Below are positions 30,966-53,772 of a DNA stretch of 60,357 bases, one piece after another. This stretch comes from a virus (taxonomy: Duplodnaviria; Caudoviricetes): positions 1 to 60,357 of IMG/VR virus record IMGVR_UViG_3300035211_000039. The stretch is one strand, 5' to 3'. The notes beneath the pieces were generated by a model. The model did no database searches, was not told the DNA's origin, and saw only the letters and a program-made list of their open reading frames with translations. The first letter of the stretch is position 1. Each line of letters starts with the position of its first letter. The translations under genes were made by a program, and so were the position numbers.

Positions 30966-31001
30966 GATCTAAACCTCCCTTTCCAAGCGATACTAAAGTA
31001 T

Positions 31002-31307: not shown

Positions 31308-31320
31308 GGAAACCTCCCTT

Positions 31321-31902: not shown

Positions 31903-31914
31903 TGACTTGCCCCC

Positions 31915-32311: not shown

Positions 32312-32320
32312 ACCGTCACC

Positions 32321-32599
32321 TCAATTTTGATGTTTTCGAAGCTCCGATAAAATCTCCTTCTGCGAAGTTTTAATTTCATCAAGCTGTTTCTGCATCGACT
32401 TCAGGGTATTATTGGCTACGGCCACATCGGTATTGAGTTTGGCTATTGCTGCTGTGTTCGAATTTGCCTTGGTTTTGCAGTCTTGATCATTGTTTGCCAG
32501 TGTGTTCATGACGAACCCGCCAGAAAGGAGGGTGAGAGCCCAAAGGGAGGCCATAATTGCCCAGATCAGCTTAGTACTTGTAGACCTACCGTTTGCCAT
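32321..32599 (-). CDS. TM plus coiled-coil protein (holin/spanin-like)
   Basis: One N-terminal TM, then heptads. Confidence 0.6.
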   Translation of the reverse strand: MANGRSTSTKLIWAIMASLWALTLLSGGFVMNTLANNDQDCKTKANSNTAAIAKLNTDVAVANNTLKSMQKQLDEIKTSQKEILSELRKHQN

Positions 32600-32621: not shown

Positions 32622-33001
32622 CTATTGCAGTTTTCTGATGATCAGCTCGTATCGCCTAACTTCATCGTTGATCCCAGGCAGTGGAGGAAGTTCGGTGATT
32701 TCGCTCGGCACCAAATACTCAACCTCGTTAGAATATCCGCTTTCCATGCCGTTGAAATAGTGTTTTGACGCGAAATAATAGGTCTCTCCAGGGACAGATT
32801 GGAAATGGTGAACTGAACGGTCCCTGATCCGGCGTCTGAGCTGAAATTATACTGTCCAGGAGATGTACCGATATAGAGCCTTGTTCCCCACTCGGCGTTT
32901 CCCGGGGCATCCCATTCGAGCGTTACCTCTGCTGCGCTGGCGATATAAACTAAAGAAAAAATACAGAAAATTGTTGCTGCAAAAATAAATAATTTCTTCA
33001 T
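32622..33001 (-). pseudogene. Signal peptide + fibronectin type III protein with a 1-nt frameshift near 32793
   Basis: AEVTLEWD..ISNL continues as PGETYYF..ESGYSNEV in the -1 frame. Confidence 0.8.
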
Positions 33002-33010
33002 TTCTACCCC

Positions 33011-34480
33011 CTATCTTATTAATGCTGTTCCAAATATTCGGACAGTTCCTCTTTGCTGACGAGGCGTTGCTGATGCCGCTACACTGTAATCTATATCTGA
33101 AGAAAAGCTGTTGGAGTTTCCGGCTCCGTCGATGCATCGAACATAGTATGTGTAGCTGTCACCACATGCGTTACTGACGCTTTGGCTGTGGGAGGTTCCT
33201 CCGGTTGCCGAAAAGGTGCTTCCCATCGATGAATAATCTACATCAGAAGTGCTATATCGGCAAGTTGCGGACTCGTCTGTCGTTACCTGCAATGTGTTTG
33301 GGTCCGGGTCCTCATCGCAGGCCTGAGAACCCGAAGGCAGAGGGGAGCTAATTACAGGTGGGTCTAAGTCCTCCGTATAGCTCACCGTTATTTGGTCAGT
33401 ACCGGTGTTGTTTGATGAGTCAGTCGCTGTTACGATGATCACGTTCTCGCCGTCTGAGAGGCCGATATCAGTGATCGTCCAGTTAGTGGTACCAGAGGCA
33501 GACCCCGAGGTCGGTTCGCACTTTGAGCAAGCCCACGTTACCGATGACACGGACACATTGTCAGATGACGTACCTCCGAGAGATACTGTGCTATCGTACC
33601 CGTTATCGTATGTCGCGCTTGAGGTAGGGGTTGTGATTGTTGCCGTTGGATCTGTGGTGTCTTCTCCGGTTACGAATCCAGTGGGTGGGCCTATAAGGGT
33701 CGCGGACGTTGTGATAATCAGATTATCAACCCACATCTCAGCATTTGTTTGGCTCGACAACCTGTGGTTGTAATAATTGCCGAGTTCTATCGACGTGTAC
33801 CCGCCACCAATATCTATATAATACTGTTTTAGCAACCCCGACACTGCTCCATCCATGGTCCAAACGTACACGCTGGATAGCCCGGTTGACGCGGAATCAA
33901 TTATGTACTCTAAACACACCCATTCTCCAACGTAGTCGCCCCAGTTGAATGTCTGGGTTCCCTCAGGCCACCAGTTCCCGTCATCGGGATCAGATCCCTC
34001 ACCATTTTCGTACTTGCAAGTTGAGTTGTTGCACACAGAGAGTCCATACTCGCCATCTCCGGTTTTTACTGATGAAATAAATCTTGTTGCCGTACCTGTT
34101 GCCTCAATGTGTTTGAGATCAAACCCAGCACAACCGCTGCTCGTAGAGTTCGCCCAATAGGACGTACCGAGTTTTATAAGATAACGAAAATGTATATAAC
34201 CGGTTGATGAGAATCCTACCGTAATGTTAGCGTCTTGACCATTTCCACCGGTGCACACTGTCGGGCCAAGTAGCAATAGCGCGTCACTTCCGCCCCAACC
34301 CCCCCCCTCGGAAAGTGAAGCTGAAGCACCATTATCAACGTAGTGATTTGATGCTATCCACGCGGACGCACCACCCCCATCGAAATCCTGGCTATACGGT
34401 AGTATTTCAGCGAGCACAACGCCCGGAAAAAACAACACCGCAACGATAAAAACCAAAAGTTTTTTTTTAGTATGTGTCAT
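33011..34480 (-). CDS. Signal peptide + lectin/lyase-like and Ig-like domain protein (accessory tail/adhesin)
   Basis: KKK-hydrophobic-VLA/E; W.C.EY..WVDNL; DTTDPT..ITTP..SDNVSV..G.N.I.VTATD.S.N Ig repeats. Confidence 0.75.
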   Translation of the reverse strand: MTHTKKKLLVFIVAVLFFPGVVLAEILPYSQDFDGGGASAWIASNHYVDNGASASLSEGGGWGGSDALLLLGPTVCTGGNGQDANITVGFSSTGYIHFRYLIKLGTSYWANSTSSGCAGFDLKHIEATGTATRFISSVKTGDGEYGLSVCNNSTCKYENGEGSDPDDGNWWPEGTQTFNWGDYVGEWVCLEYIIDSASTGLSSVYVWTMDGAVSGLLKQYYIDIGGGYTSIELGNYYNHRLSSQTNAEMWVDNLIITTSATLIGPPTGFVTGEDTTDPTATITTPTSSATYDNGYDSTVSLGGTSSDNVSVSSVTWACSKCEPTSGSASGTTNWTITDIGLSDGENVIIVTATDSSNNTGTDQITVSYTEDLDPPVISSPLPSGSQACDEDPDPNTLQVTTDESATCRYSTSDVDYSSMGSTFSATGGTSHSQSVSNACGDSYTYYVRCIDGAGNSNSFSSDIDYSVAASATPRQQRGTVRIFGTALIR

Positions 34481-35258
34481 AAATCGCCTCAGCAACAGTA
34501 GAAGTTAACGCTGTACCGTTGTACCAATAGAAATCGTCTATTTGACCATAAAACGGGTAGTCATCAACGCCATCATCAGATCGACCGATCATAAACTGTG
34601 CGGTGTTGTCTGGAATTGCGTCATCAAGATTGAATTGAGTTCCATTAACCTGATCTCCAAACGTTCCTCCAATTGATGAGATCCATACCGTAACCTCATT
34701 TGGTTCAGAGGCGTTAATTGATATGACGACATGGTAAAGAGTATCTATCGTTGGCGACCAGCCAACGTCAATTTCGGTCGAACTGTAGTCATTGGTGTGT
34801 ATAGCTAAATACAATGCGCTTGAATCAGACACTTCCGTTCTGAGAGAAAACCCGCTTCGACCCTCATCCCACACATACTTCCCCACTATAGCCAAATCAG
34901 ATCCAACCAAATATGTTGCTCGGAACACTACAGATAGGGACCAATCTCCGGCTCCCGGCTCGAACGCTGCATTATCGGCATGGTATGCGTAGATATTATT
35001 ATCAAAAATAGCAGCATGAGATCCCTCTGCCTTGTTCGTCGCATCGTATGTCACGGTTCCCGAGTTAGTTAGGTTGTAGGTCGATCCAGTATCGTTGAGG
35101 TTGTTGTTAAACTGCCACCTGGCGGTTGGGGTGGGTATTTCTGTACCTCCGCCAGAATTAGCTATTTTAGACGCTATAACCCTTAAATAAGACTGCTGTA
35201 GAGGGCTTGCGCAAACAACAAACGGTATTAAAAGTAGAAATAATATCAGCTTTTTCAT
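34467..35258 (-). CDS. Signal peptide + LamG/ConA-like protein
   Basis: MKKLILFLLL..VCA/S; YHVVI..F.GQIDD; TAATG coupling. Confidence 0.8.
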   Translation of the reverse strand: MKKLILFLLLIPFVVCASPLQQSYLRVIASKIANSGGGTEIPTPTARWQFNNNLNDTGSTYNLTNSGTVTYDATNKAEGSHAAIFDNNIYAYHADNAAFEPGAGDWSLSVVFRATYLVGSDLAIVGKYVWDEGRSGFSLRTEVSDSSALYLAIHTNDYSSTEIDVGWSPTIDTLYHVVISINASEPNEVTVWISSIGGTFGDQVNGTQFNLDDAIPDNTAQFMIGRSDDGVDDYPFYGQIDDFYWYNGTALTSTVAEAIYDTY

Positions 35259-38200
35259 TAGTCTGTTGCTCCATCCCAAAGGCCGTCACCAGTACAAGAC
35301 CAAGCATTAGCGCTTCTATATTGACAGGCGATAACGGCACCACTGGTTCCGTCCGTGGTAATGTTTTCGTCTTGGGTTTCCGCTGCGCCATCAAGATAAA
35401 TCGTATCGGCAGCGTTCGGGTCAAGAATGACTGTATTAGCACCCTCAACTATAACAGTGAAGTGCATACCTGCGGTTACGGCCGGAAGACCACCTGTTCC
35501 GGCAGCGTTTGCTATCCATGTGCCGCCGTACATGTTTTTCCCGCTCATTGTCCACGTATCGGGATCGGCAACCGTCGGAGTGAGCGCCCTTGCTGCTATG
35601 GCTATTCCGCTTGCATAAATCGTGTCAACACCTGTATCTGTCGATACGTCTATCTGGTTTGCTCCTCCGTCTGCGAGGGTTATCGTTTCATCGGAAAGGT
35701 CAAGGTGAATTGCGATATCCGCGGCAACTTGTACTATGCCGTCAGCACCCATGTCGATAAACACCGCCGAATCAACACCCTCAAGCTTATCAACCGATGT
35801 GATGTCGTAGTCGGCCATATCGGAATTAGCACCAGCGGTAAAGCCGCCATCTACAACGAACGTACCACCATCTGAAACAAAGGTGTGATCGGTTATATCG
35901 GCGCTTCCATAGTCCATATCGACAGCGCCGACGCCGTCCAATCCTACGGAGGTGTTAATAACGCCGGTAACGGTCAAAACGCCAATGGCTGCGGTCCCAG
36001 AGGTGGAGATGTTTCCCGTGGTAAAGTCGGAGTAGTCTATTTGGCCAGCGCCGGACCCTTTGTTTAGATGTGCATCGTCAATAGAGGCGTCAACATACTG
36101 AGACGAATCCACCGAATCGGCAGGTAGGGTTATCGAATAGGTTCCAGCGAAAGTTAAGGCAGAACCGGAAAACTTAGCATAGTTCGAACCGCCGTCTCCG
36201 ATTCTAAGGTCATCGACATTCAGCTCGGTAACGTATGCACCAAAATCAATCTCGTCGTTTGCATCAGGATTGGTTATATCGTCCCAGGCAACTGAGCCAC
36301 CACCACCGCCGGCTGCCATGTAAAACTTATTGGCGTCCGCATCGTAGGAGACAACATAATCATCCTCTCCGGTAGAGGGGATGTCTGCTTCGGCGAGCGA
36401 AATTACTATGTAATCCGTTGTCCCGTCAGAGTAAACCAAAAGATCGTGCGCGAGATCTGTAATACCGTCAGTGTCAACCATCACCTGCGAGGCGGCAAGA
36501 CTGGTGTGAACCGTTCCAGCAGCAACGCCCCTAAATTGTGTGTCGATTGAGGTTATCGAGGTCACATCAAAGTATGTCGTGTCGAGTCCGGCAAACGTTA
36601 TATCAGAGATGTCAGATGACGGCACCCCGAACACCATGAACTGATTTGCAGCTGTCGGGACCGCGTTCGGGAATCGGAAGTCGAGCGATGCCGTGAAGTT
36701 GTCCTGGGCAAGCCAGCCCCTATATTCTGTTTGATAGGCTGGATCTTCGTAAATCCTAACCGCTCCGGTAGTTCCTGAGGCTCCCGAAATTTGCAGCGTT
36801 TTGACAACCGTGTCTCCGTCACCGTCAACGGTCATACCGCCACCACCGACTGAAAGCTGATCTGCGGTTAATACCGCGTCATAGGTTCCATCTGAATTTG
36901 TTACCGTGAAAACAGAGTTTGCAGCGTTGTCGTTCAAATCCCAATATACGTCGGCACCGGGTCCAGCGGTATGCGTGTACTCCAATCTGTCGTCAGTGGT
37001 TTCGTCATAGGCCAATTCCCAATCATTATCGTTACCGAAAGACATGGCTATTCCGTCTTGCCACTCCCAATCTGCTCCAATGGTATCGGCGGTATCAGCC
37101 CTTACTATTTCGGCGTCAACGGCTTCGTATGTGGAGGAAATATCCGGTATATCTCCAGCTTCAAGCCCAAAAGTAATGGTCATAGAGGACATATCCCACG
37201 ATCCAGTGGTGGGCAAATCCCCGGAAGTCAACCCGAACGTCACCGTCTTGCCGGAAATATCTAAACTCGCGGCCAGGTCATCCGTTCCAACCTCTCCGTT
37301 TTTTATATCCGCTGATACGATAACGCTGTTGGGAAGGCCACCTTCAGCGATACCGGTGATGGTTCCATCCCCAGCAAGGGTAATGGTCCCATCGGTTACG
37401 GTTCCACCTGTCACGGCGCCGCTGGCCGTGATGCCGGCCGCACCGGTCAGGTTGTTCGAATCATCTATGCTGATTCCGGTAGCCTGCAGGAGGTTCCCTG
37501 TTCCATTGGTTTTTATAAGGATATTATCAGTACCGAATCCATGTGGGCCTACCAAAATGTCGCCTGCTTCTGCGGGGATGTAAACCGCAACGTCAGCCCC
37601 GGGGTTTCTTCCGGCAAGGGCGATTTCGAAATCGTTTGCCGTGGTTCCTTCAAAATACATGGTGTTACCACCACCATCTGCGGTGAAGGCCGAACCCGAT
37701 GCAGCATCTCCGACCGCCGTGATATCACCAGATCCAGCAGGGTCATCCCATGATGGGTTGGCCGCCGCACCTCCGGTCTTAAGATATTGGCCGGACAGCC
37801 CCGGCCCGAGATTGACCCAATCCGTTCCGTCAAAATAGATAATGTCTCCCTGTGCAGCCGTTATTCCGGCAATGTCCACCAGATAGGCATGAACCCCAAT
37901 GGTGACATAATCACCACCATCGGTATAGGTGACAACGGTTCCATCGGTTCTCAAAACCCCATCGCTGTTGGCTGCCCCAAGATAACCTGCGGTAGCACCG
38001 GCATCCACCTTGACCGTGAAGGCGTCGGCACCGCCCGCCTCGATAGCGGTCTCAAGCTCCTGGATAGCGGCCTTGACCGTTTGGTTGTCGGTAATCGTTG
38101 ATCCTGTGAACTCACCGAGATGAGTCGCTCCCGTTGAAATTCCCAATGCGGTTTGAATGTCATCGATCTCAAGGGCGGCAATCTCAGCATCGGTGGCCGC

Positions 38201-38659
38201 TGTTGAGGCATCCTGCTTGGACGCGAACAGGGCGTCAAGCTCTGCCTCTGTGTCGTATGCCGCGCCGAGCGTAGTGGTGAGCTCTGCGGGAGTAAGGTAG
38301 GCCGTCAGCCATGCCTCATCGGCAAACGATCCATCATCGTCGGTATCGAACAGGTGCATCCGGTCATAGAAATCATCCTGCGATACGGCATGAGTAGCGT
38401 CGGCGTTGAAGTTTCCGGCCGTAAATGCCTCGTCCTGGACCTCTACCGATCCGGCGCCGGCATTGGCTACCGCAATGTCATAGATATCATCCGGAGTCAC
38501 GATAACTCTCGTTGTGTCTCCGCTCGGGCTTGCCTTCTGGGCGGCCGTCATCTGCTGGGGCATTGGAAACGGTGGCGCTCCAGCAGCCTCCGTATATATG
38601 AAAGTGGAATACCCGGCAAGTAATATGATCGCAAGTGCCAGTATAGTAATTTTTTTCAT
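35258..38659 (-). CDS. Tail fibre/spike-like protein with N-terminal signal peptide (1133 aa)
   Basis: G/D/T/A-rich fibre motifs (GDIIYFDGTDW, GQYLKTGG.AANPSW); MKKITILALAIILLA; TAATG coupling at 38659. Confidence 0.75.
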   Translation of the reverse strand: MKKITILALAIILLAGYSTFIYTEAAGAPPFPMPQQMTAAQKASPSGDTTRVIVTPDDIYDIAVANAGAGSVEVQDEAFTAGNFNADATHAVSQDDFYDRMHLFDTDDDGSFADEAWLTAYLTPAELTTTLGAAYDTEAELDALFASKQDASTAATDAEIAALEIDDIQTALGISTGATHLGEFTGSTITDNQTVKAAIQELETAIEAGGADAFTVKVDAGATAGYLGAANSDGVLRTDGTVVTYTDGGDYVTIGVHAYLVDIAGITAAQGDIIYFDGTDWVNLGPGLSGQYLKTGGAAANPSWDDPAGSGDITAVGDAASGSAFTADGGGNTMYFEGTTANDFEIALAGRNPGADVAVYIPAEAGDILVGPHGFGTDNILIKTNGTGNLLQATGISIDDSNNLTGAAGITASGAVTGGTVTDGTITLAGDGTITGIAEGGLPNSVIVSADIKNGEVGTDDLAASLDISGKTVTFGLTSGDLPTTGSWDMSSMTITFGLEAGDIPDISSTYEAVDAEIVRADTADTIGADWEWQDGIAMSFGNDNDWELAYDETTDDRLEYTHTAGPGADVYWDLNDNAANSVFTVTNSDGTYDAVLTADQLSVGGGGMTVDGDGDTVVKTLQISGASGTTGAVRIYEDPAYQTEYRGWLAQDNFTASLDFRFPNAVPTAANQFMVFGVPSSDISDITFAGLDTTYFDVTSITSIDTQFRGVAAGTVHTSLAASQVMVDTDGITDLAHDLLVYSDGTTDYIVISLAEADIPSTGEDDYVVSYDADANKFYMAAGGGGGSVAWDDITNPDANDEIDFGAYVTELNVDDLRIGDGGSNYAKFSGSALTFAGTYSITLPADSVDSSQYVDASIDDAHLNKGSGAGQIDYSDFTTGNISTSGTAAIGVLTVTGVINTSVGLDGVGAVDMDYGSADITDHTFVSDGGTFVVDGGFTAGANSDMADYDITSVDKLEGVDSAVFIDMGADGIVQVAADIAIHLDLSDETITLADGGANQIDVSTDTGVDTIYASGIAIAARALTPTVADPDTWTMSGKNMYGGTWIANAAGTGGLPAVTAGMHFTVIVEGANTVILDPNAADTIYLDGAAETQDENITTDGTSGAVIACQYRSANAWSCTGDGLWDGATD

Positions 38660-38769
38660 TATCCGAATCCTATGATCTTGGGTTTGTTTGAATCGATAGA
38701 CCATATGTTCACGCCAACGGTTAGATCGCAAAACAAAATCTTCTTCCATATTTCGTCTGACGTAATCAT
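38659..38769 (-). CDS. 36-aa ORF coupled at both ends
   Basis: TAATG overlaps upstream and downstream. Confidence 0.55.
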   Translation of the reverse strand: MITSDEIWKKILFCDLTVGVNIWSIDSNKPKIIGFG

Positions 38770-39131
38770 TAGAAAGGTGTCTTCTCGGCTACGATTTCAA
38801 CCGTGAATGTTCCGCTTCCGATACCGGATACCGTAATGGTCGGCACCCTGGCGCAGTATCTGTTTTCTGCACCTCCTGCAGCAAGCGGGATAAATGATCC
38901 TCCGGTATAATTATCACTTGCAAGAGCCCCAATCTCACCTCCAAGACCGGTGTTGAGCGCTACCGCAACGGATGTATCAGCCGAAGCTATGACCTCTGCC
39001 TGTGCCAACCAGTAACCGACAAGGCGTTCATCCAGTTCATATGCCGCCTCATCTCCGCTGAATACGATTGTTTGAACAACGGCGTGTTGCCTTGAAATGG
39101 GTGTGCTGAAAGTGTTGCTATCGACGGTCAT
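38769..39131 (-). CDS. Hypothetical virion-module protein
   Basis: GGAGG RBS; beta-rich. Confidence 0.75.
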   Translation of the reverse strand: MTVDSNTFSTPISRQHAVVQTIVFSGDEAAYELDERLVGYWLAQAEVIASADTSVAVALNTGLGGEIGALASDNYTGGSFIPLAAGGAENRYCARVPTITVSGIGSGTFTVEIVAEKTPF

Positions 39132-39153
39132 TTGATTTTCCTCCGTTCTGTGG

Positions 39154-39249
39154 AGGCAACAAAAAAACCCGCCAACGGCTTAAGCCGCAAGCGGGTTGCG
39201 AGAGTCCATCATTTCGTCGATGGTCGGGCAAGGCCCTTATTTGTTGCCT
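39154..39249 (-). terminator. Attenuator-like leader with intrinsic terminator
   Basis: AACCCGC..TTAA..GCGGG followed by T8; two upstream hairpins; 5' AGGCAACAAA complementary to TTTGTTGCCT. Confidence 0.75.
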
Positions 39250-39251
39250 AT

Positions 39252-39281
39252 AATTTATATCAAATCAAACTATTGTGTAAA
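39252..39281 (-). promoter_or_regulatory. Putative promoter
   Basis: TTTACA-16-TATAAA with TGn extension. Confidence 0.5.
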
Positions 39282-39283
39282 CA

Positions 39284-42200
39284 CTATTTATCTCTGGCGT
39301 TGAACTTTTTGTTGAAACGCCTCATAATTCGTTCGATCCTGTTGTCGATTCTCCTTATCCTATCAGATGATTTCGGAGTCTCGCCGCGCCTTTCAAGTTC
39401 TGATCTTTGCCGCCTGAGTTCCGATACCTCTTTCGATGCGTCCCGGGCAAGCTCTCCGAGTCTTAACTCGGACTTGTTGTCCTTGATGATCTTTTTGATC
39501 ATTTCCTTGTCGTCTTCATAGTGCTTATACTGTCTTTCAGCGACCCTTACCGTGTCGATGTTATCATAAAAATCACTTGATAGGGTAGACGCCCCCGGCT
39601 TTCCGAATACTTGACGAACGAATGGGATCTCATACGACTCAATATCCTCGCCCTTTGAGTATTTCCTGGCCGCCGATGCGCTCCTTGCAAAGAACTTGGC
39701 CATACCACCACCAACGGCGTCAACAACATGGTCGATCGATTCTGGGCTGATATCAAGCCATTCAACGCCAACCTTAGCCTCATTGCCACCGCCGATCTGA
39801 TTCAATAATCTGGCGACATCCCTTGACGGCTCCCTTACTGACGACCAGTAAAGCTCTGACATCGGTTTCGGGTTATAGATATCGTTCTCCGGGTGAATTC
39901 TTTTTCCGGTCCAATCCTTGTTTTCAACCACCTGAACAATTGGAATTAGGGGTGCCGGCGCCAGCGTTTGAAGGAAACTGATATCGTTCCCAACAGGATT
40001 GAAAGCGTCGATCGTCGCCCGGGCAAGCCTCAATCCTCCGTCGACCGGCTTGAAGTTCTTTTTCGTGGTAAGTTCTCCAAGGGTTTGCCCAATCACATGA
40101 AGCACGTTGTACCCCCACGGCAACGGAAGCGAAAAGTATTCTCCTTCACCGCCGCCGATCTGTTTTGGGAGCATAACGATCAATTTTCTGTCCTTAACCC
40201 AATCCGGTATTTTATCGTAATAGGGTTCACCGTCCTCATCATCCCCGCCGACTGACCGGTTTATGGCGTCAAGGGCCCAGGCGAAGGCGATTGTCGGATA
40301 TATGAAACGCCTTCTAACCTTCTGGTTCTTGGTGGCCATCAGCACACGGGCGGTTCCCTGGATGGACGCATTATAGAAAAGCTTCCATGCGTTTATTGCT
40401 GGGCCCATGTTTCCCTTGCGGTTGAAGTTGACGGTAAGCTCTTTGGCCACCCGGGCGGCCTTGGCTTCCGTAGCGCCTTTTTCGACCAGGTTTTTGAAAA
40501 CTGAAAGCCTGATTCCATTTTCAACGACCGTATTCATGTCGTTGACCCAATCCCCAACAGCTTTCATTCCCCTCAAGGTGGTGTGGAAATTATCGGGCTT
40601 CATGCGCCTTATCTGACGCTCAAGGCTTCTTCTCCTGGCGTTGATATCGGAATAGCTTTCTACCCATCCGGTCTGGCCGCCTGCCTTCCTAAAACGTTCG
40701 TACCATGATCCCCACTCGGTATCCTTGATGCCTTTCCGGCGCCCCTGGTATATCCCCTTCAGTGCTGCGGGAACGTCCTTCAGGGCCTTCATCTTGATAT
40801 CGTGGGCCTCTGAATCGTTCATATTGTAAATGGCGGTCTGAATATCCCTGCCAAAGTTTGTGATAATAAACTCAGGGTTGAGGCCGGTATTTACCATGGC
40901 AAGCCATCTTGTTACTTTGGAAAGGGACTTAACCAATATTCCATTCGTTTCTGCATCCAAGTTCTTAAGCGCCGAAACGATCCTCATCGCTTCAGGGTCT
41001 CCTTCGTCGAACGTGATATGATGCTCCTCGCCGTTTATTCGAACAGCCATCACGTTGTCCATAAGGCGATCTTGGGGATCTGGGCGATAAACAACGAGAC
41101 CATCAGAATTAAAACTCGGCGCGTATTCTACCTGATCAACCTTCCACGGGCCCTCGTTGGCTTTTGCAAATTCAAGAAATGCCCTCCCAACCTTAGCCTT
41201 TTCGGATCTCACGATGGTTGTTTGGTACTGGCTTACAATTTGTGGAAGGATTCTGCCAAAATCTATTTCCCTCGTAGATCCGGCGCGCCGTTTCTGACCT
41301 CCCCTTGTGTCGAAACCGCGGCCTTTTTTGGGCAAAGAAGCGTCCTTTCCCTCCCTGAAAAGGGGAACGTAGTGGCGATAAACAGCTTCCCATGCGTCGA
41401 TTGTTTCGTCCTTCTCGAGACCGGACTTTCTCAAAAGGTCTCTTTGGGCCTGGGTAATGGCGTCCACTCGCCGACCGATCTCGTCAAGAACTCTCGCGTT
41501 TTTCGACATGGATGCCTCTGAAAGTATTTCGTCTGCCCTTTCGTCGGTCATACCCGATAAGGCCGTGTTATCCTCTACGGGTGTGTAATTGTCGAGTCGT
41601 GCGATAGCTGCGTGAGTGGCCATCATGGCCTTTTCGGTCTGCTTATATCGCTTATCGATTGGGTACTTATCTGGTTTTGCCTTTCTGATATTGGCGCGAT
41701 CTGATTTGATTTTCTCAAGCCTGTCGACCAACTCTGATCTTTGTTGTTCAACTTCGTCTTTGGTGATGTTCATTTTCTTAAGCTGGGCGTTGGCCTCTTT
41801 CGCATGACGAGCGACGAGGTACTCTCCGGCCATTTCCGAATCAATTCCGTTCTTGCTCATCAGGTCAATGAGCGGAGACACATGATCATTTTCAGAATCG
41901 TCTATCTCGGCGCCGACCATGCCGTGATAGCGAAGCTCTGCAAGGTATGCGTCCATGTATTCGGGAAGGTCCGACCCTTTTTTTCTGGCAGCCCTCATCT
42001 GCGCCTTGTTCAGATAATTGAACTTGTCCTGGGCTTGGTATATGAATTCGTCCCAGATCCTTTTTGAAGTTTCGGGTTCAGGAGATTCCTTTAATGACGG
42101 ATCGTCGGACTTCTTCTCTTTAATGGCGTTAATATTATTCTTGAAATTTTCAAGGAACGGGTTGATGGGAGTCTTTGTGCTGTACCTTATGTCTGGGTTG

Positions 42201-47305: not shown

Positions 47306-48042
47306 TTGGCCGGCACCAGTTTCATTTGTTTGCTGTCCCAAACGAGATTGACAGTCGGTTTCTGTGGAGTCTGAACCTGTTGTTCCTGAGGTTTGTTCAT
47401 CAGTTCGTCGATACCAAAAGCCTGCTGAAGGTGTTTTAGTTTCTGATCCTTCTCATCTTCATTCAGGAACTTGTCGAGGTTTTCGACGGCATTGTTGTAG
47501 AGCCTGATGCGCTCTCCAAGGTTCTTGTCTTTCTGATAGCGCTCATAGGCCTGCTTGCGGTCTATCCCATAAATTCTGGAAATAGCATCGACATCCTTTT
47601 CCATAGTTGACCGGTTATCCTTGGAGGTTGCTGCCCGTTGTGCGGTGATTTTCTCGTTGCTCCTTCGATTGAGCATGTTCTGCTTGGCCTTTCCATAGGC
47701 CTCGAATATTTTCGACCTGGGGGCTACTGTTCCAAGCAATTCCTTGGGGAGACCCTGAAGCAGCTTATGTTTCGTTTCCGGGCTCAGCTTTGATTCAGTG
47801 ATGGCGGTCTGAATGTCAACAGGTTCGGCGAGAAACTTCTGGCGCTTCTGCTGCTCCAGGGCAATCCTGTGTTGACCTGCCAGGGTTTGTCGATCAGCAT
47901 CGTCTTTGGCAGACTGAAGGTCGAGTACGGGCATTGCCTCATCGTGGCGATATTTATCGTTGGTTCCCTGTCTGAGCATGTCTGCCAAGCGGAATATGCT
48001 TCTTGATGTCATTCCGTAATCTGGTGTCAAGCCGCCTGCCAT
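47302..48042 (-). CDS. Putative ejection/internal virion protein
   Basis: Helical, Q/K-rich; position. Confidence 0.6.
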   Translation of the reverse strand: MAGGLTPDYGMTSRSIFRLADMLRQGTNDKYRHDEAMPVLDLQSAKDDADRQTLAGQHRIALEQQKRQKFLAEPVDIQTAITESKLSPETKHKLLQGLPKELLGTVAPRSKIFEAYGKAKQNMLNRRSNEKITAQRAATSKDNRSTMEKDVDAISRIYGIDRKQAYERYQKDKNLGERIRLYNNAVENLDKFLNEDEKDQKLKHLQQAFGIDELMNKPQEQQVQTPQKPTVNLVWDSKQMKLVPAK

Positions 48043-48054
48043 GGCAACCCCCTT

Positions 48055-49434
48055 CTATTCTTGTGGAATTTGCTCGTATAGTTCAGGAGCATACTCTTTT
48101 GTTAGTGCGATGCAATGATCAATATATAGATCAAGACCTTCATCAAGCATTTTGTCCTTCAAGTGGTTTACGACCGGAATAAGCATGCTCTTTTTGATCT
48201 CAGCGTAGAATGATTTTGTATCCTCTACGGAGGCCGTCATGATACGGACAAGCTCCTGGCCGTGCTTCATGTAGAACTTGGCTCTCGGAGACTCTTTTTC
48301 CAAGGCATATGCGTACATTCTGTTGAGAAGGGCAAGGTCTCTGCGGTCCATTCCAACGTGATTTGCGGTTGCTCCGCAAATGTAGGAGTCTTCACCGATG
48401 TCGGCAACTTCGTCAGTAATAGCGCCGATCGGGTTTATCAAGGCCTCTGAGGCCGCCTGCCAATCCTCATTGACGCCGTTTTTGCCAAGAATGCCGGAAA
48501 GGGTATCGCCAACAAACGTACCGGCAGGATCTATCCACTGGCTTACAAGGTCAGGGGTTCTGACGAAAGTTTTTTTCCAATCCTCGCTTCCGTTCTCGTT
48601 GTGAATCGCATTCCATATTGAGGCGTCCCACTTTTCGCCGGCAGATGGCTCGATATCGATAAGATCTCTCCAATATCCCTGCCATGGGTCATTCCCTACT
48701 CTAGGCTCATACGGTATGTCTCCCTCTCCGCTGAAATCAAAAGCCGTTGAGGTTGGTTGCCCCTCAAATGTCGTATCGGTGTTTTCACCAAGAAGGCTTT
48801 CTATCGCTATGCCAAGAGAAACCCAATCAAATCCGCTCATGTTGTCCAGGAATGATCCGGCAAGGTCTGCCCCACCGCCAGCGGCATCGGCCGCACCAGC
48901 TGCGTCGGCGGCGTCCAGTCCGGCCGTGAACTCTCCTCCGGAAGCCGCTCCACTGATATCAACAGCACCACCGCCACCACTGGCAATCGGCGCTATATCT
49001 GCCCCACCCTCTGCGTATATTAGGTCTGGAACTGCGGGGGCCGCATCTCCGATTCCGGATGTGATCTCGGCTCCCTCCATGGCCCCGCTAACTGCTGGGT
49101 CGGTTGACGGAAACAGAGACTTGTAAAGGTTACCAGCCCCTTCAACAAGAGAGCTGCCCGTATCTTTCACATAGGGGTATGTTTCAAGAGCCAATGACGC
49201 CCCAGCGGAAAGGTTGGACATATTTCCCTGGTCTGCCATGTCATCATTGTACTGTTGCTGAAGATCGATCTGCTCCTGAAACTGATCTTGTTGCTGTTTG
49301 AGCGCTTCTGCCTCAAGCTCTCTTTGCAAATTATTGAAATACGCCTGCTTAGCGATAGGTGCTTCTGCATCAACTATGTCAGCATAGCTGAATGTCGGCC
49401 GTCTACCTGTCAATGCTGAAAGTTGGGTATTCAT
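48055..49434 (-). CDS. Putative ejection protein with C-terminal CFI-box-like domain
   Basis: Q-rich helix, G/A-rich linker, SYICGAT..FY..HG.ELV. Confidence 0.6.
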   Translation of the reverse strand: MNTQLSALTGRRPTFSYADIVDAEAPIAKQAYFNNLQRELEAEALKQQQDQFQEQIDLQQQYNDDMADQGNMSNLSAGASLALETYPYVKDTGSSLVEGAGNLYKSLFPSTDPAVSGAMEGAEITSGIGDAAPAVPDLIYAEGGADIAPIASGGGGAVDISGAASGGEFTAGLDAADAAGAADAAGGGADLAGSFLDNMSGFDWVSLGIAIESLLGENTDTTFEGQPTSTAFDFSGEGDIPYEPRVGNDPWQGYWRDLIDIEPSAGEKWDASIWNAIHNENGSEDWKKTFVRTPDLVSQWIDPAGTFVGDTLSGILGKNGVNEDWQAASEALINPIGAITDEVADIGEDSYICGATANHVGMDRRDLALLNRMYAYALEKESPRAKFYMKHGQELVRIMTASVEDTKSFYAEIKKSMLIPVVNHLKDKMLDEGLDLYIDHCIALTKEYAPELYEQIPQE

Positions 49435-49445
49435 GGGTCCCCCTA

Positions 49446-49883
49446 TTATTGTAATGCGGATATGAAATCAGATATGAACATATCTGTTTCATAACCATAA
49501 CGCTTTGTGTTTTTTATCATTTCGTTTATTTTGTTTTGCCTTTGCAAAGATCTTTGGCGATTCTGGTAAGAGTTTACTGCTGACAAACCAAGTCCTGCTC
49601 CCGATATAATATTCGAAATGTCGGAAAGCTTTTTATTGGTGTTCAGGGTGTCCCTTTGCATCTGCATCGTTTTACCGAACTGATCCGCATTCTGGGAGAG
49701 CCTTTTCTTTTGCAGTGCCAAACCTCGGCCGGCATCCTCCATAGCCGTTCTGTCTGCCGCCTGTTGGGCGGCATGCCTTGCCAAAACTGGAGTCGTATCG
49801 ATCACGGCAGGACCGCTCTCTCTTGAACGGGATGCGTTGGCAAGTATCATGTCGTCTGTAAGCTTGGGCGTTCTTCTCAGCAT
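49446..49883 (-). CDS. Putative ejection protein
   Basis: A/Q-rich helical, GAGLGL segment. Confidence 0.55.
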   Translation of the reverse strand: MLRRTPKLTDDMILANASRSRESGPAVIDTTPVLARHAAQQAADRTAMEDAGRGLALQKKRLSQNADQFGKTMQMQRDTLNTNKKLSDISNIISGAGLGLSAVNSYQNRQRSLQRQNKINEMIKNTKRYGYETDMFISDFISALQ

Positions 49884-49885
49884 TT

Positions 49886-52800
49886 TCAGTCCTCCCTAAT
49901 CGCGTGTCCCTGGAATCCCCAATAAAGAAGGTTCCATTTTTCTGAAGATGTTGTCGCGCTGAAGTCTATCTGATGAGTATATCCATCAAGGGGTATATAC
50001 GTTCCTCCAGATGACGTATCTTCCCTGCTGTTTCTTGAAATATTTCCACCGCTATTGAGTGGCACGGTTATTGTTTTTGCGGAAACAGATCCGTTCGGAT
50101 AGGCGCTTATGGTAATATCGCGGTCTTCTGTTATCGACTCTGAAACGATCTTTACTTTTGATATATGGCTTACTCCCCATATTCCCATCTCGTCAATGAA
50201 CGGAGGGGAGAACTCTCCTGTCCTTACCTGCTGGGCAATGGCCGTGCCGTCCCACGTTGTTCCATTGTCGAGCCTAACCATGGTTCCGTCATTCAACAGA
50301 CCATAATTATAGACTCCTCCGTTGGCGTCCCTTACCGGGAATGTCGAAACCGGATAGGCTGCCGGCACTTTCTCATACCACTTTCCTATTTTATAATTAT
50401 AAACGAGCCAGGCGTTATTGACCGTTGAATCTCCGGATGGGAATAATAGGTTGTATTCATTGTTAATAGTATCAACATATGCGGTTGATTTATAAATATA
50501 ACTGTAATTGACGCACTCTGATTCTGACGGATCAAAATAGTTTTCTATGCCCTCTTTCCGGTGAACAGGAACTGTTCCTTCAAATATTACAGGACCTGCA
50601 GAATCGAGCCACATTAATGCGTTTCTCAGTATGCCGCCATCTTCTCCGACCGTCAGGTTTGTTTCTCTCATCGTCATTGGAGCTGGACAACCTATGTTAG
50701 AAGACACCTTTTTTTTTACAAAATAATCGTTGTATGAAATATAGGGTTGAGACCCAGACAAGAGGAACGTTTCGTTTGGTTTGCAAACTGCAAGGGATTG
50801 GATAATATTTGATCCGTACCTGTTGTGAAGCGTTCCGATTGCCGTAATTTTTTTATCATCTCCGATATAGATCGAAAGTTTTCCATCCCTGGAGGAGTCT
50901 ATTCCGTTAAACACCCATGGCGTGTCGGTCTGCGAGTAGTCGATCCTGTTTCCGTCTATCAAAAGTACCCTTCCGCCATATGATGCAACCGAGTCATACC
51001 CGGTTATGTTTTTCGGAGACGTTATGCCGCCGACATAATCGATAGTTGTTTCGTCTGGGTTTCCATCGCTCGTCAGCGTTCCGTTTATTGTGATTTTGTA
51101 AATATATCCCCTTACTCCGAAAATTTCTATTGGTTGCTCTGCGCGATATTCAGGCGGAGACCAACTAATAACGCCAGATTTTGCAAACGTGGAGTCATCG
51201 TCATCGTCGTATGTGCCATCGTAAAATTCTCCTACACTAACATATTCAGTACCGTTCCAATACTTTATGCTTGCTATCTGAACAGTTGCAGAATTAACAT
51301 TTTCTGATGTCATTGTGACGTTGATACCCATTATTTTTTCATCGAACATCATAAAAATGGCATCACCGGCGTCATCAAGGCCACCTATTTCTGCAGCGTA
51401 AACAGAATTTTTCGTGCTATCAACAGACTCGACGAAGAAGGTATAATCTTTGTAAACGGTATCCATTAAAACCATGAATTTCGTGCATTTTCTCTCGGAC
51501 CCGTTCCAAACATCTCCTATTGGCTGTATTGGTATTCCAACGTTGAGCTTATATATTCCGGCCGTACCGGAACTCAACAGAACGCGATACCAGTATAAAA
51601 CACTTCCGTTAATGTACCTTTGTTTCGCATAGTTGGAAAGATCCCATGAAACCGTTCCGTTTTGTGCGAACGATACGCCTCCGTTGGTTGTTCCGTCTGT
51701 GACTGTAAGGTCAGACCAAACAGATCCTGAAAGTTCAGATACGGTCAGAGAACTTGATGCGATGTTCGTGCTTGAAAAATACGGAGTAAAGCTGTTGATT
51801 CTGAGCGGCGAACCTATAAAAAAGTATGTCTGAGCAGCCTCTTGATCTGGTGTTGTCGGAACTGAAAAGTTACCAGCCCACCGAGAAGATCCCTTTGTGA
51901 TCCTCAACTCATCAATATAGCCATCCATATAGGAGGCCGTTTCTGATCCATATCCTATTGTGATAATAGAAGACAGATCTGGAAGAGCTCCTGCATAGGT
52001 GTCGGTTCCCACGGATGTTCCGTTTAGATAAAGCGTAAATGTATTGCCGCTCCTGGTAGCGGCAATGTGTTTCCATCCGGTGGTTGTTGTTTCATGGGAT
52101 ATGGATACATGCTCTGTCCCGGAAGACACGACTTCAAAACTTATGGTTGTGTTCGTTCCAACAGTTAGATAGATCCCATAATAATTATCTGAATCATCAT
52201 ACTGCTCGTAAAGGGCGACCTTGTCTCCACCGGTTGGAAACAGAGCCGGCCAATTCCTAAACCACAAATCTATTGCAAAATTGGAACTTCCCATATTCCA
52301 ATCAGCGCTATCGGCAGAACTCAAAGACGAATTCCCAACACTCCCAAGGCCATCAAACTCTGCAGATGTCGTTCCGAATTTCACAAAATCAGAGCTTGTA
52401 TTCACACCACCATTAGCGGATATTGTATGGCTGCTGCCGCTCGAATCCGTGAATGTACTGGCTTCATCAACGCCTTCCATGTGAAGCAAAAGAACAACGC
52501 TTGAAAATAGGTTGTCGACTTCTAACGCTTCTGATTCGATTTCGTTGGAAAGCTCAGATGAGTAATCGATAGCGTCATCTCCATCGCTATCTTCGCTCGT
52601 GAAAACGACTGCAGCGCGTATTTCATCTCCACCCCACACCAATGCGTTTTGGTCATCAACATAGAACATGGTCCCTGCGGGGCCATCTGTGAAATAACCT
52701 TCTGCGTCAGATACCTGGTAAAGGCTCGACACTGAAAAGTCACCCGTACCAGGTATGGCGGTTGTGTTCTCATAAAGATAGTAAGACCCTGAATTGTTTA

Positions 52801-53104
52801 CCTTTGCAACTACATGAGATTCGCCTTCCTTGTAAAAATGAAAACCGCTTACCGGGGTGTCTATCTGAGTGCTGTTAATTTCAGAATAGCCGTCAACGGT
52901 TTCAAGTCCCTGATCTTCATATCTGAGATTTTTGAGGGTTACATAATTTTTTGCGCCAACACTGAACGGGTTTACACTGGGCATCCATCGTCCGTCGAAC
53001 CTGAATGAGAATATCTGGTCTGCCTTGTCAAATCCCGAAAAAACAAAAAAGCCACCTAATGACAGAGCAATTGCAATGCAAATTATGAAAAGCTTTTTTA
53101 TCAT
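49886..53104 (-). CDS. Tail nozzle / DNA-stabilisation-like protein with LamG insertion and signal peptide
   Basis: Propeller-type motifs (NIGC.AP.T, WL...G...FEG, LVYNY..W); LamG VLLLHMEG..WKHIA..GYIDELRITKG; MIKK-hydrophobic N-terminus. Confidence 0.75.
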   Translation of the reverse strand: MIKKLFIICIAIALSLGGFFVFSGFDKADQIFSFRFDGRWMPSVNPFSVGAKNYVTLKNLRYEDQGLETVDGYSEINSTQIDTPVSGFHFYKEGESHVVAKVNNSGSYYLYENTTAIPGTGDFSVSSLYQVSDAEGYFTDGPAGTMFYVDDQNALVWGGDEIRAAVVFTSEDSDGDDAIDYSSELSNEIESEALEVDNLFSSVVLLLHMEGVDEASTFTDSSGSSHTISANGGVNTSSDFVKFGTTSAEFDGLGSVGNSSLSSADSADWNMGSSNFAIDLWFRNWPALFPTGGDKVALYEQYDDSDNYYGIYLTVGTNTTISFEVVSSGTEHVSISHETTTTGWKHIAATRSGNTFTLYLNGTSVGTDTYAGALPDLSSIITIGYGSETASYMDGYIDELRITKGSSRWAGNFSVPTTPDQEAAQTYFFIGSPLRINSFTPYFSSTNIASSSLTVSELSGSVWSDLTVTDGTTNGGVSFAQNGTVSWDLSNYAKQRYINGSVLYWYRVLLSSGTAGIYKLNVGIPIQPIGDVWNGSERKCTKFMVLMDTVYKDYTFFVESVDSTKNSVYAAEIGGLDDAGDAIFMMFDEKIMGINVTMTSENVNSATVQIASIKYWNGTEYVSVGEFYDGTYDDDDDSTFAKSGVISWSPPEYRAEQPIEIFGVRGYIYKITINGTLTSDGNPDETTIDYVGGITSPKNITGYDSVASYGGRVLLIDGNRIDYSQTDTPWVFNGIDSSRDGKLSIYIGDDKKITAIGTLHNRYGSNIIQSLAVCKPNETFLLSGSQPYISYNDYFVKKKVSSNIGCPAPMTMRETNLTVGEDGGILRNALMWLDSAGPVIFEGTVPVHRKEGIENYFDPSESECVNYSYIYKSTAYVDTINNEYNLLFPSGDSTVNNAWLVYNYKIGKWYEKVPAAYPVSTFPVRDANGGVYNYGLLNDGTMVRLDNGTTWDGTAIAQQVRTGEFSPPFIDEMGIWGVSHISKVKIVSESITEDRDITISAYPNGSVSAKTITVPLNSGGNISRNSREDTSSGGTYIPLDGYTHQIDFSATTSSEKWNLLYWGFQGHAIRED

Positions 53105-53772
53105 TTTGTTTTTTCCTGAAGATCCTGGCGGTAAAATCCAAGTTCTGAACTGTACTGGCTCATTACAGCTTGGTACATCTCAACATTTCTGTCTTTAAGG
53201 GCCATCCTGCCGAGCATGTAGAGCTTGAGAGCGGTCTCGTAAATAGACGGGATGGTGATAGCCGCATTGGACGCGATATCTACAGGCCTTTTGACAAGGT
53301 AAACGGTGCAGGTTTCTGTCGTAACAGATGAAAGTGCTGGATAAATGCCGACCTTGCCTTCGAATTCGTACCAGAACTGAGGACCATCGATATCCCCCTC
53401 GTCAGACTTAAGGCCGACCATGGATGGATCACCTTTTTTCAACCCATAAACGGCCCCGCCCGCGTCATTGTACTGAACCGCCAAAACCTCAATGAAAGCT
53501 GTCGAAAGTGTGTATTCGATCGTGTCGGCAATAAGGTTGACCGATTCTGTGTCCTCAAGGCAATGAGACTTGTTTACTAGGTCTACCATTCCCTCGTTGA
53601 GGTATTCGAGCATCTCGGCGGCCGAAAAGTTGTTCAGGGTGGCGTCACCATAGTCTGAGCGGACATCGGATATGATTGTCGATGCAAGGGTGGATGATGT
53701 CTGTTGTGATCCGGACATGGCCAGTGAAACAGACACGAAGATTGCCATTGCGGCAAAGAATATTTTTTTCAT
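53101..53772 (-). CDS. Head-tail adaptor-like protein 2, with signal peptide
   Basis: II.DVR..S..EML.YLNEG..IYP..VY..RP..IP..Y..AL..Y; ATGA overlap at 53772. Confidence 0.7.
   Translation of the reverse strand: MKKIFFAAMAIFVSVSLAMSGSQQTSSTLASTIISDVRSDYGDATLNNFSAAEMLEYLNEGMVDLVNKSHCLEDTESVNLIADTIEYTLSTAFIEVLAVQYNDAGGAVYGLKKGDPSMVGLKSDEGDIDGPQFWYEFEGKVGIYPALSSVTTETCTVYLVKRPVDIASNAAITIPSIYETALKLYMLGRMALKDRNVEMYQAVMSQYSSELGFYRQDLQEKTK

What the first reader, a model, noticed from the sequence alone, without database searches (positions are those of the whole stretch)
33001..53772. Sec-type signal peptides on six neck/tail-module proteins, including adaptor and nozzle
Seen: basic-hydrophobic-small-residue N-termini at 53772 (MKKIFFAAMAIFVSVSLAMS), 53104 (MIKKLFIICIAIALSLGGFFVFS), 38659 (MKKITILALAIILLAGYSTFIYTEA), 35258 (MKKLILFLLLIPFVVCA), 34480 (MTHTKKKLLVFIVAVLFFPGVVLA) and 33001 (MKKLFIFAATIFCIFSLVYIASA). 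Four starts are fixed by ATGA/TAATG overlaps. Portal, scaffold, capsid, adaptor 1 and ejection proteins lack them. Established: tailed-phage virions assemble in the cytoplasm without export signals. Inference: the distal tail is exported or membrane-tethered and joins heads at the membrane or at lysis, a split-compartment assembly route that might also hide tail proteins from cytoplasmic defence sensors.
Basis: partly seen in the sequence, partly recalled or inferred. Interest (0 to 1): 0.85.

Follow-up and report, generated by a model that had tools for sequence, protein, structure and literature searches.

The report
Phage tail proteins carrying export signals
An uncultivated short-tailed phage, like many of its relatives, puts secretion-type signal peptides on every outer tail part but on no head part, which suggests that the tail is exported and joined to the head outside the cytoplasm, a route not described for tailed phages.

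Summary
All six N-termini are at the stated coordinates, and each has an n-h-c signal-peptide layout and a Shine-Dalgarno-like site. Two of the six are core virion parts. 53772 is a tail adaptor (Pfam SU10_adaptor; fold matches solved podovirus adaptors). 53104 is a nozzle (fold matches the SU10, cyanophage A4 and crAss001 nozzles).

The signal is conserved and modular:
- 96 of 150 adaptor representatives carry it.
- The alignment shows a textbook -3/-1 signal-peptidase site before a conserved GSQQTSS motif.
- Signal-less relatives start with Met at that site.

Across related viral contigs the signal is close to all-or-none for the module: tail adaptor, nozzle and fibre genes carry it together or lack it together. 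Head, neck-adaptor and ejection proteins lack it.

Some fibre homologues carry lipoprotein signals instead. Nine literature searches found no description of this.

My best reading (about 0.5) is that the distal tail is exported by Sec and joins cytoplasmic heads when the inner membrane is breached. Export, cleavage and host remain untested. The sixth gene is frameshifted. The virion role of the last three proteins is unknown.

The parts
53101..53772 (-). Tail adaptor (second adaptor ring), 223 aa. Signal peptide is about residues 1-20 (nt 53713-53772), with the predicted site ..LAMS|GSQQTSS.
   Evidence: Pfam PF24175 SU10_adaptor, E 2.4e-16, 61.2 bits (cut-off 27); the match starts at residue 30. 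AF2 pLDDT 89.5 with helix 2-18 ahead of the fold. Foldseek top hits are podovirus adaptors: 9k09_d 2.8e-10, 8jov, 7z47_B SU10. ATGA overlap.
49886..53104 (-). Nozzle protein, 1072 aa, with a LamG insert (about residues 195-425). Hydrophobic N-terminus is about residues 1-23 (nt 53036-53104). The h-region is long (18 residues) and the -3/-1 site weak (VFS|G), so it may be a signal anchor.
   Evidence: AF2 pLDDT 79.8; residues 16-27 are below 50. Foldseek: SU10 nozzle 7z4b_DW 2.3e-16, cyanophage A4 9k09_U, crAss001 muzzle 7qok_A, P22 gp10, T7 gp12. Laminin_G_3 at residues 265-403. ATGA overlap.
35258..38659 (-). Fibre-like protein, 1133 aa. Signal is about residues 1-25 (nt 38585-38659), followed by a Pro-rich linker.
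   Evidence: 39 of 52 homologues are signal-like, and several have a lipobox. The closest, P0271 (86% identity), has ..LLAGC where the window has ..LLAGY. One partial homologue is named 'tail fiber domain-containing protein' by its source. No Pfam or PHROG hit. AGGA at -12.
34467..35258 (-). LamG-domain protein, 263 aa. Signal is about residues 1-17 (..VVCA|SPL).
   Evidence: Laminin_G_3, 27.7 bits against a cut-off of 27.6. TAATG overlap and GGAG upstream. Virion role not shown.
33011..34480 (-). Ig/PKD-like domain protein, 489 aa. Signal is about residues 1-24 (..VVLA|EIL).
   Evidence: Weak PKD/Big_13 hits below cut-off. P0330, 97% identical, keeps the same signal; the other homologues match only the Ig-like part. 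Virion role not shown.
32642..33001 (-). Small FN3-like protein with a signal of about residues 1-23 (..IASA|AEV). The reading frame is broken after about residue 72.
   Evidence: The FN3-like sequence continues in another frame after ..TISNLS, at a CCC run. Strong AGGGGG 6-11 nt upstream.
53769..54602 (-). Probable neck adaptor (first ring), with no signal. The likely start is the ATG at 54602 rather than the GTG at 54620.
   Evidence: Atlas: the record starts at residue 7. The nearest clusters are named 'SU10 adaptor protein domain-containing' (score 0.98; PF24175 on 83-84% of members in ranks 2-3). hhalign against the tail-adaptor alignment found nothing, so this is a lead only.
39284..49883 (-). 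Four signal-less proteins between nozzle and fibre (145, 459, 246 and 2685 aa); presumed ejection proteins.
   Evidence: The 2685-aa protein has LPD38 (1.3e-38) and ART-PolyVal (1e-34, 3 stretches). None has a hydrophobic N-terminus. Synteny with L001.
38769..39131 (-). 120-aa protein of unknown role. It is the only gene of the distal block without a signal.
   Evidence: Atlas: nearest are unnamed viral clusters at 0.93-0.95.
30357..32599 (-). Probable lysis block: a 92-aa N-terminal TM protein (weak Rz-like spanin hits), an 81-aa ORF of no assigned role (31915..32160), a C92 amidase-like protein, a lipoprotein (..LVGC) and a 202-aa membrane protein.
   Evidence: PHROG Rz-like spanin, E 0.004-0.008. 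Peptidase_C92, E 4e-4, below cut-off. Lipobox seen. This hints at a two-membrane host.

Best explanation
The phage has a GP4/phi24B-type short tail: portal, neck adaptor, tail adaptor, nozzle and fibres.

Shown: every part from the tail adaptor outwards begins with a Sec-type signal sequence. Every part that is inside the head or sits on the portal has none.

Inferred: the distal tail proteins are taken across the inner membrane by Sec. Most are cut by signal peptidase I, and some fibre homologues are lipidated instead. They fold and pre-assemble in the periplasm. They meet DNA-filled heads, already capped by the neck adaptor, only when the holin opens the inner membrane at the end of infection.

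The advantage is unknown. Candidates are folding of LamG/Ig/FN3-type extracellular domains, action on envelope receptors before release, and keeping tail proteins away from cytoplasmic sensors.
For: (1) Identity. The adaptor HMM hit is above cut-off and the fold matches. The nozzle fold matches.

(2) Selection on a peptidase site. In 117 aligned adaptors, position -1 is Ala in 79. Position -3 is A/V/S/C/T in 86. Position -2 is bulky (F 30, Y 23, L 15, W 11). The rest of the N-terminus is not conserved in sequence.

(3) 96 of 150 adaptor representatives pass the strict rule.

(4) Of 32 full-length signal-less adaptors that I tallied by hand from the coordinates, 18 begin within a residue of the predicted site (MGSQ, MAGSQ, MSQ). 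Signal-less nozzles start M-Q.. where signal-bearing ones have A|Q.

(5) Module-wide pattern. In 19 distinct loci with a signal-bearing adaptor, 34 of 46 of the next three ORFs are signal-like against 7 of 129 upstream ORFs. In 5 signal-less loci the figure is 0 of 10.

(6) Natural experiment. The L055 nozzle is 78% identical to the L012 nozzle over the mature part and its adaptor about 60%. L055 lacks the signal on both.

(7) Fibre homologues switch between SPase I-type and lipobox signals. This implies that export matters, not the helix sequence.

(8) Charge distribution (K/R before the h-region, neutral or acidic after it) predicts an N-in, C-out topology (sequence).
Against: - No predictor, proteomic or experimental evidence of export or cleavage exists.
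- The window's nozzle, and that of its closest relative L001, have a long h-region and a poor cleavage site.
- The 120-aa gene at 39131 in the distal block has no signal.
- Two loci are discordant or unclear. In L010 the nozzle ORF lacks its N-terminus. In L056 the ORF after the adaptor has no signal.
- Joining heads and tails in the short time between membrane breach and lysis is unprecedented.
- Signal-less relatives show that the tail does not need export to fold.
- The signal rule picks the best of several starts per ORF, which inflates all the counts alike.
Confidence: 0.5

Rival explanations
1. The N-termini are uncleaved signal anchors or lipid anchors. They tether the distal tail to the periplasmic face of the inner membrane, and release needs a later event.
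For: The window's nozzle and the L001 nozzle have 16-18-residue h-regions and weak -3/-1 sites. Several fibre homologues have lipoboxes (LAGC, LSGC, MFGC, FAGC) followed by Pro-rich linkers, the usual build of anchored surface proteins.
Against: The adaptor alignment shows a strong -3/-1 pattern. Signal-less homologues begin at that site. A virion carrying many transmembrane helices or acyl chains would be hard to keep soluble. The window's own fibre has lost the lipobox Cys.
Confidence: 0.15
2. The proteins have a dual use. A fraction is exported to act on the host envelope (receptor masking, superinfection exclusion, glycan binding). Virions are built from molecules that escape export.
For: LamG, Ig/PKD and FN3 domains are typical of secreted glycan binders. 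Prophage genes with secretion signals are known and were read this way for P. gingivalis phages (PMC10367356, passages). Signal-less relatives assemble without export.
Against: This gives no reason for an adaptor ring protein to be exported. Only 2 of 88 signal-bearing adaptors have a Met near the site that could give an internal start. The window's nozzle has no in-frame Met before residue 41, inside the conserved block. The all-or-none pattern includes the adaptor.
Confidence: 0.15
3. The hydrophobic helices stay on the mature virion and insert into the host membrane during infection, as part of the tail rearrangement seen in SU10-like phages.
For: SU10 tail proteins reorganise to penetrate the envelope (PMC9509320, abstract and passages). 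AF2 models show a free N-terminal helix.
Against: This does not explain the K/R n-region, the -3/-1 pattern, the swaps to lipoboxes, or signal-less relatives that start at the site. The helix sequence is not conserved. SU10 and crAss001 homologues lack it.
Confidence: 0.08
4. It is an artefact: wrong starts or chance hydrophobic N-termini.
For: 38659 is not the first ATG of its ORF. The rule used is crude.
Against: There are ATGA/TAATG overlaps and SD-like sites. The signal is conserved in hundreds of independent gene calls and in my own ORF reading of 37 IMG/VR loci. The enrichment statistics argue against chance.
Confidence: 0.03

Closest known systems
GP4 / phi24B-type podovirus tails (two adaptor rings, hexameric nozzle, lateral fibres, large polyvalent ejection protein)
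   Same: The gene order and parts match: a neck adaptor-like protein, a tail adaptor, a nozzle and a 2685-aa LPD38/ART-PolyVal protein. The phi24B preprint describes two adaptor rings and a 2811-aa LPD protein (10.64898/2026.04.10.717836, passages).
   Different: The passages I read mention no signal peptides on those phages' tail proteins. Here every part distal to the neck adaptor has one.
Escherichia phage SU10 adaptor gp11 and nozzle gp17
   Same: Same Pfam family for the adaptor and the best fold match for the nozzle.
   Different: The Pfam match starts at residue 30 of the window protein, so the first 28 or so residues are an add-on. SU10 has one adaptor ring (PMC9509320, passages).
Filamentous phage (Inoviridae) coat proteins
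   Same: Virion proteins made with Sec signal peptides and assembled at or beyond the inner membrane (recalled; the abstract of PMC4823517 says filamentous phages use the host secretion machinery).
   Different: Those are non-tailed ssDNA phages extruded without lysis. Here the heads are HK97-type and DNA-filled, with terminase and portal.
Phage-encoded secreted proteins and lipoproteins (spanins, exclusion lipoproteins, P. gingivalis prophage proteins with Q-rule signals)
   Same: Phage genes with SPase I or II signals in late regions (PMC10367356, passages). The window has such genes too (8247, 31307).
   Different: Those are not virion core parts. Here an adaptor ring and the nozzle carry the signal.
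Membrane-associated head assembly of T4 (recalled, not checked here)
   Same: A morphogenetic step of a tailed phage is tied to the inner membrane.
   Different: That step is on the cytoplasmic face and uses no cleavable signal. Here the predicted topology puts the proteins outside.

Membership tests
Podovirus head-to-tail adaptor (Pfam PF24175 SU10_adaptor) | Profile match above the curated cut-off | tested here: met
   61.2 bits against a cut-off of 27, E 2.4e-16; residues 30-212 match profile positions 3-179.
Podovirus head-to-tail adaptor (Pfam PF24175 SU10_adaptor) | Adaptor fold (helix bundle plus beta domain) | tested here: met
   AF2 pLDDT 89.5. Foldseek hits are adaptors of cyanophage A4, GP4, KHP30, VP1, SU10, N4 and crAss001, with TM 0.55-0.66.
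Podovirus head-to-tail adaptor (Pfam PF24175 SU10_adaptor) | Forms a dodecameric ring between portal or neck adaptor and nozzle | not testable with these tools
   Position in the gene order only.
Podovirus nozzle (SU10 gp17 / T7 gp12 type) | Nozzle fold (beta-propeller core with platform) | tested here: met
   Foldseek: 7z4b_DW 2.3e-16, 9k09_U 8.2e-15, 7qok_A 3.3e-13, P22 gp10, T7 gp12. TM is only 0.24-0.38 because of the multi-domain build.
Podovirus nozzle (SU10 gp17 / T7 gp12 type) | Sequence profile match to a nozzle family | tested here: not met
   Pfam and PHROGs matched only the LamG insert. phmmer against PDB sequences matched only a LamG-like chain.
Sec / signal peptidase I signal peptide | Positive n-region, hydrophobic h-region of about 7-15 residues, small residues at -3 and -1 | tested here: met
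   All six have the n- and h-regions. The adaptor family has Ala at -1 in 79 of 117 and A/V/S/C/T at -3 in 86 of 117. The nozzle h-region (18 residues) and site are atypical.
Sec / signal peptidase I signal peptide | Called by a trained predictor (SignalP, DeepTMHMM) | not tested
Sec / signal peptidase I signal peptide | Actual translocation and cleavage | not testable with these tools
   Indirect only: signal-less homologues start at the predicted site.
Lipoprotein (signal peptidase II) signal | Lipobox with invariant Cys at +1 | tested here: not met
   The window's fibre has ..LLAGY. P0271 (86% identity) and at least seven other homologues have ..[AS]GC.
Tat signal | Twin-arginine motif in the n-region | tested here: not met
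   The n-regions are MKK, MIKK and MTHTKKK.
Bacteroidetes Q-rule substrates | Gln at +1 after the SPase I site, in a Bacteroidota host | tested here: inconclusive
   None of the window's six has Q at +1. 14 of 18 signal-bearing nozzle rows in relatives do. Those loci use SD-like sites before 30-86% of genes against a background of about 9%, while the Bacteroides phage crAss001 control shows 7 of 42, which equals its background.

The most novel reading that the evidence does not exclude
A large, uncultivated group of short-tailed phages builds its virion in two compartments. Heads, sealed by a neck adaptor, are made in the cytoplasm. The whole distal tail (tail adaptor, nozzle, fibres) is secreted by Sec, matured by signal peptidases and pre-assembled in the periplasm. 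The two halves join only when the inner membrane is opened at lysis. The trait has been switched on or off at least about 15 times within the adaptor family, always for the module as a whole.
Probability: 0.45. Interest if true: 0.9.

Novelty: new variant of a known kind. Interest (0 to 1): 0.8.

Why it matters
Textbook morphogenesis of tailed phages takes place entirely in the cytoplasm. If core tail parts are exported, head-tail joining must happen across or after a membrane breach. That would change how lysis timing, burst size, tail folding and recognition of phage proteins by cytoplasmic defence systems are thought about. It would also mean that automatic annotation pipelines mislabel such tail genes as secreted host-interaction factors. 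The claim can be tested directly with reporter fusions, N-terminal proteomics and tomography. Natural pairs of close relatives with and without the signals (L012 and L055) give ready controls.

Tried and rejected
- Host identification failed. The genome-collection scan with the large terminase gave only distant hits in unrelated MAG bins. Cluster look-ups gave no organism names. The metagenome scan with the fibre gave only partial relatives, and the close relative's contig was not returned.
- No cultured relative was found. tblastn of the window adaptor and of the L007 adaptor against 50,697 phage records gave 1 and 2 weak hits, none signal-bearing.
- I first read the Gln at +1 of relatives' nozzles as the Bacteroidetes Q-rule and so took the host to be Bacteroidota. 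I dropped the host inference after the SD-usage control.
- A profile comparison of the 54620 protein with the tail-adaptor alignment found nothing. Its adaptor nature rests on the Atlas lead alone.
- An internal start that would make a signal-less adaptor is possible in the window (Met19) but has no SD-like site (sequence). It is not general: 2 of 88.
- Pfam scans of 27 other window proteins found no signal peptidase, Sec component or periplasmic chaperone.
Full report
**What the window is.** The window is the whole record held for this genome, one contig of 60,357 nt. Positions 9-134 are identical to the last 126 nt, so the contig closes on itself. It is a phage. It encodes a P22-like portal, small and large terminase subunits, RecT and a DNA methylase. 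It also encodes a major head protein (PHROG 9953, E 3e-28). The structural genes run on the minus strand from about 60,300 down to 32,600 and are followed by a probable lysis block.

**The observation.**
- I applied a crude hydrophobicity-and-charge rule to 86 ORFs. It flagged nine: the six, two lipoprotein-like ORFs (starts 8247 and 31307) and one short doubtful ORF.
- That is 6 of the 7 genes of the distal tail block against 3 of 79 others. Fisher p is 3e-6 even when 4 of 79 is used.
- Starts 53772 and 53104 are ATGA overlaps. Start 35258 is a TAATG overlap. Start 34480 lies 14 nt inside the upstream gene. Start 33001 follows a 9-nt spacer.
- Start 38659 is the second ATG of its ORF. It has an AGGA at -12, the upstream ATG at 38749 has nothing comparable, and the 86%-identical homologue starts at the same Met.
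- All six have an SD-like motif 6-13 nt upstream.
- Portal, scaffold, capsid, the 54620 protein and the four proteins between nozzle and fibre have no hydrophobic N-terminus.

**What the proteins are.**
- The 53772 protein matches Pfam SU10_adaptor well above cut-off. The match begins at residue 30, so the hydrophobic stretch is an extension.
- Its AF2 model (pLDDT 89.5) has a helix at residues 2-18 ahead of the fold. It matches solved adaptors of cyanophage A4, GP4, KHP30, VP1, SU10, N4 and crAss001.
- The 53104 protein (AF2 pLDDT 79.8) matches the SU10 nozzle best (E 2.3e-16). Next come the cyanophage A4 chain 9k09_U, the crAss001 muzzle, P22 gp10 and T7 gp12. It carries a LamG insert.
- The protein upstream, 54620, is probably a neck adaptor, on a protein-atlas lead only. 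A profile comparison with the tail adaptors found nothing.
- The 2685-aa protein has LPD38 and ART-PolyVal domains.
- This is the layout described for phi24B and GP4. [quoted passage not shown] They also have a roughly 2800-aa polyvalent ejection protein (preprint 10.64898/2026.04.10.717836, passages).
- The boundary between signal-less and signal-bearing proteins therefore falls between the neck adaptor and the tail adaptor.

**Conservation in the adaptor family.**
- An exhaustive HMMER search found 453 representatives at E <= 0.001. Of the best 150, 96 pass the strict rule, and several more fail it only because of a long n-region or one acidic residue.
- In an alignment of 117 of them (34 dropped for length <195 or >270), the hydrophobic stretch is not conserved in sequence.
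- The three residues before the conserved GSQQTSS motif are conserved. Position -1 is Ala in 79. Position -3 is A 32, V 31, S 9, C 8, T 6. Position -2 is F 30, Y 23, L 15, W 11. This is the signal peptidase I pattern.
- From the coordinates I tallied 32 full-length signal-less members by hand. Of these, 18 begin within one residue of that site (MGSQ.., MAGSQ.., MSQ..). Another 12 have only a short non-hydrophobic leader.
- On a tree of the mature parts, the signal state needs at least 15 changes. The first five of 200 label shuffles printed needed 28-31. The trait is inherited but has flipped many times.

**Module-wide pattern in related loci.** Scans of the viral contig collection gave 31 and 9 loci. 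Three of the 9 (L050-L052) re-fetch contigs already held as L002, L008 and L003. I read their ORFs myself.
- In 19 distinct phages the tail adaptor and the gene in nozzle position both carry a signal. So, usually, do the one or two fibre-like genes after the nozzle.
- In three phages (L023, L029, L055) adaptor and nozzle both lack it.
- Two cases are discordant or unclear: L010 (nozzle ORF lacking its N-terminus) and L056.
- Tallies: in signal-bearing loci, 7 of 129 upstream ORFs are signal-like against 34 of 46 of the next three ORFs. In five signal-less loci the figure is 0 of 10.
- L029 has the head genes closest to the window (capsid 66%, portal 51%) yet a signal-less tail.
- The L055 nozzle is 78% identical to that of L012 over the mature part, and its adaptor about 60%. 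L055 lacks the signal on both.
- Signal-less nozzles begin M-Q.. where signal-bearing ones have ..A|Q...
- Of three full-length nozzle homologues from the protein search, two have a signal. The most distant one begins at the conserved block.

**Fibre and the last three genes.**
- 39 of 52 homologues of the 1133-aa protein are signal-like.
- At least eight have a lipobox, including the closest one (86% identity, ..LLAGC). The window has Tyr in place of that Cys and a possible SPase I site a few residues on.
- A Pro-rich linker and a conserved block follow the signal. So the kind of signal varies while export is kept.
- The 263-aa LamG protein and the 489-aa Ig/PKD-like protein are ordinary-looking secreted proteins. 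A 97%-identical homologue keeps the signal of the 489-aa protein.
- The 119-aa ORF is an FN3-like domain whose second half lies in another frame.
- Nothing shows that these three are virion parts.

**Host.**
- Weak Rz-like spanin hits and lipoproteins suggest a host with two membranes.
- 14 of 18 signal-bearing nozzle rows in relatives (13 of 17 distinct phages) have Gln at +1. This recalls the Bacteroidetes Q-rule (PMC5837995, title and abstract).
- Those loci, however, use SD-like sites before 30-86% of genes against a background of about 9%. The Bacteroides phage crAss001 control shows 7 of 42, which equals its background.
- I therefore do not assign a host. The conserved Gln remains unexplained. 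It is consistent with selection on the residue that becomes the new N-terminus.

**Mechanism.**
- Shown: a conserved, peptidase-shaped, modular N-terminal signal on all distal tail parts and on no head part.
- Inferred: Sec export, cleavage (lipidation in some fibres), periplasmic pre-assembly, and joining to neck-adaptor-capped heads when the holin opens the inner membrane.
- The charge distribution predicts N-in, C-out, so the bulk of each protein would be outside.
- Rivals are uncleaved anchors, dual use with an exported fraction, retained membrane-inserting helices, and artefact. Each is weighed in its own section.

**Literature.** Nine full-text searches found no paper describing signal peptides on adaptor or nozzle proteins, or an exported tail in tailed phages. 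The nearest is a note on P. gingivalis prophage genes of unknown function with Q-rule signals (PMC10367356, passages). Only open-access text was searched, and supplements were closed.

**Limits.**
- No trained signal-peptide predictor was available, and there are no proteomic or expression data.
- The host is unknown.
- The ORF rule is crude and chooses among alternative starts.
- Loci and representatives are related, so the Fisher values overstate independence.

Noticed in passing
window 1-134 and 60232-60357: Positions 9-134 are identical to the last 126 nt, so the contig is a closed circle or a terminal repeat, and the portal gene spans the junction. The first 8 nt are extra. From memory they look like the end of a sequencing adapter.
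   Followed up: partly
window 32642-33001 (-): The small signal-bearing gene is an FN3-like domain broken by a frameshift at a CCC run. The rest of the domain reads on in another frame. This could be a sequencing error, a pseudogene or a programmed shift.
   Followed up: partly
window 38585-38659 (-): The fibre's signal has Tyr where its 86%-identical relative has the lipobox Cys. This is an apparent recent switch from a lipoprotein signal to a plain signal.
   Followed up: partly
window 3060-5513 (-): The large terminase (817 aa) has weak Hint and intein-splicing matches at residues 432-733, both below the Pfam cut-offs. BLAST to the L001 terminase covers only residues 269-431. This is a probable intein.
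   Followed up: no
window 7372-8247 (-): A lipoprotein-like protein (..ILFAC) with a weak right-handed beta-helix match is encoded outside the structural module. It may be an exported glycan-degrading enzyme.
   Followed up: no
L003, L007, L009, L012-L017, L019, L022, L024, L028, L030, L053 (nozzle starts): Gln follows the predicted cleavage site in most relatives' nozzles, although these phages use SD-like sites, unlike a Bacteroides phage control. This is unexplained.
   Followed up: partly
L001:7878-9125; L023:2772-3827: Single signal-bearing genes also sit in the head region of some relatives: a 415-aa protein just before the neck adaptor in L001, and a 351-aa protein after the portal region in the otherwise signal-less L023.
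   Followed up: no
L003, L009, L012, L015, L017, L028: Several relatives have two tail-adaptor paralogues in tandem, or adaptors fused to extra C-terminal domains (348-450 aa). All carry signals.
   Followed up: no
window 39284-47341 (-): The 2685-aa virion-type polyvalent protein carries three ART-PolyVal stretches, LPD38 and a weak GNAT-like match.
   Followed up: no
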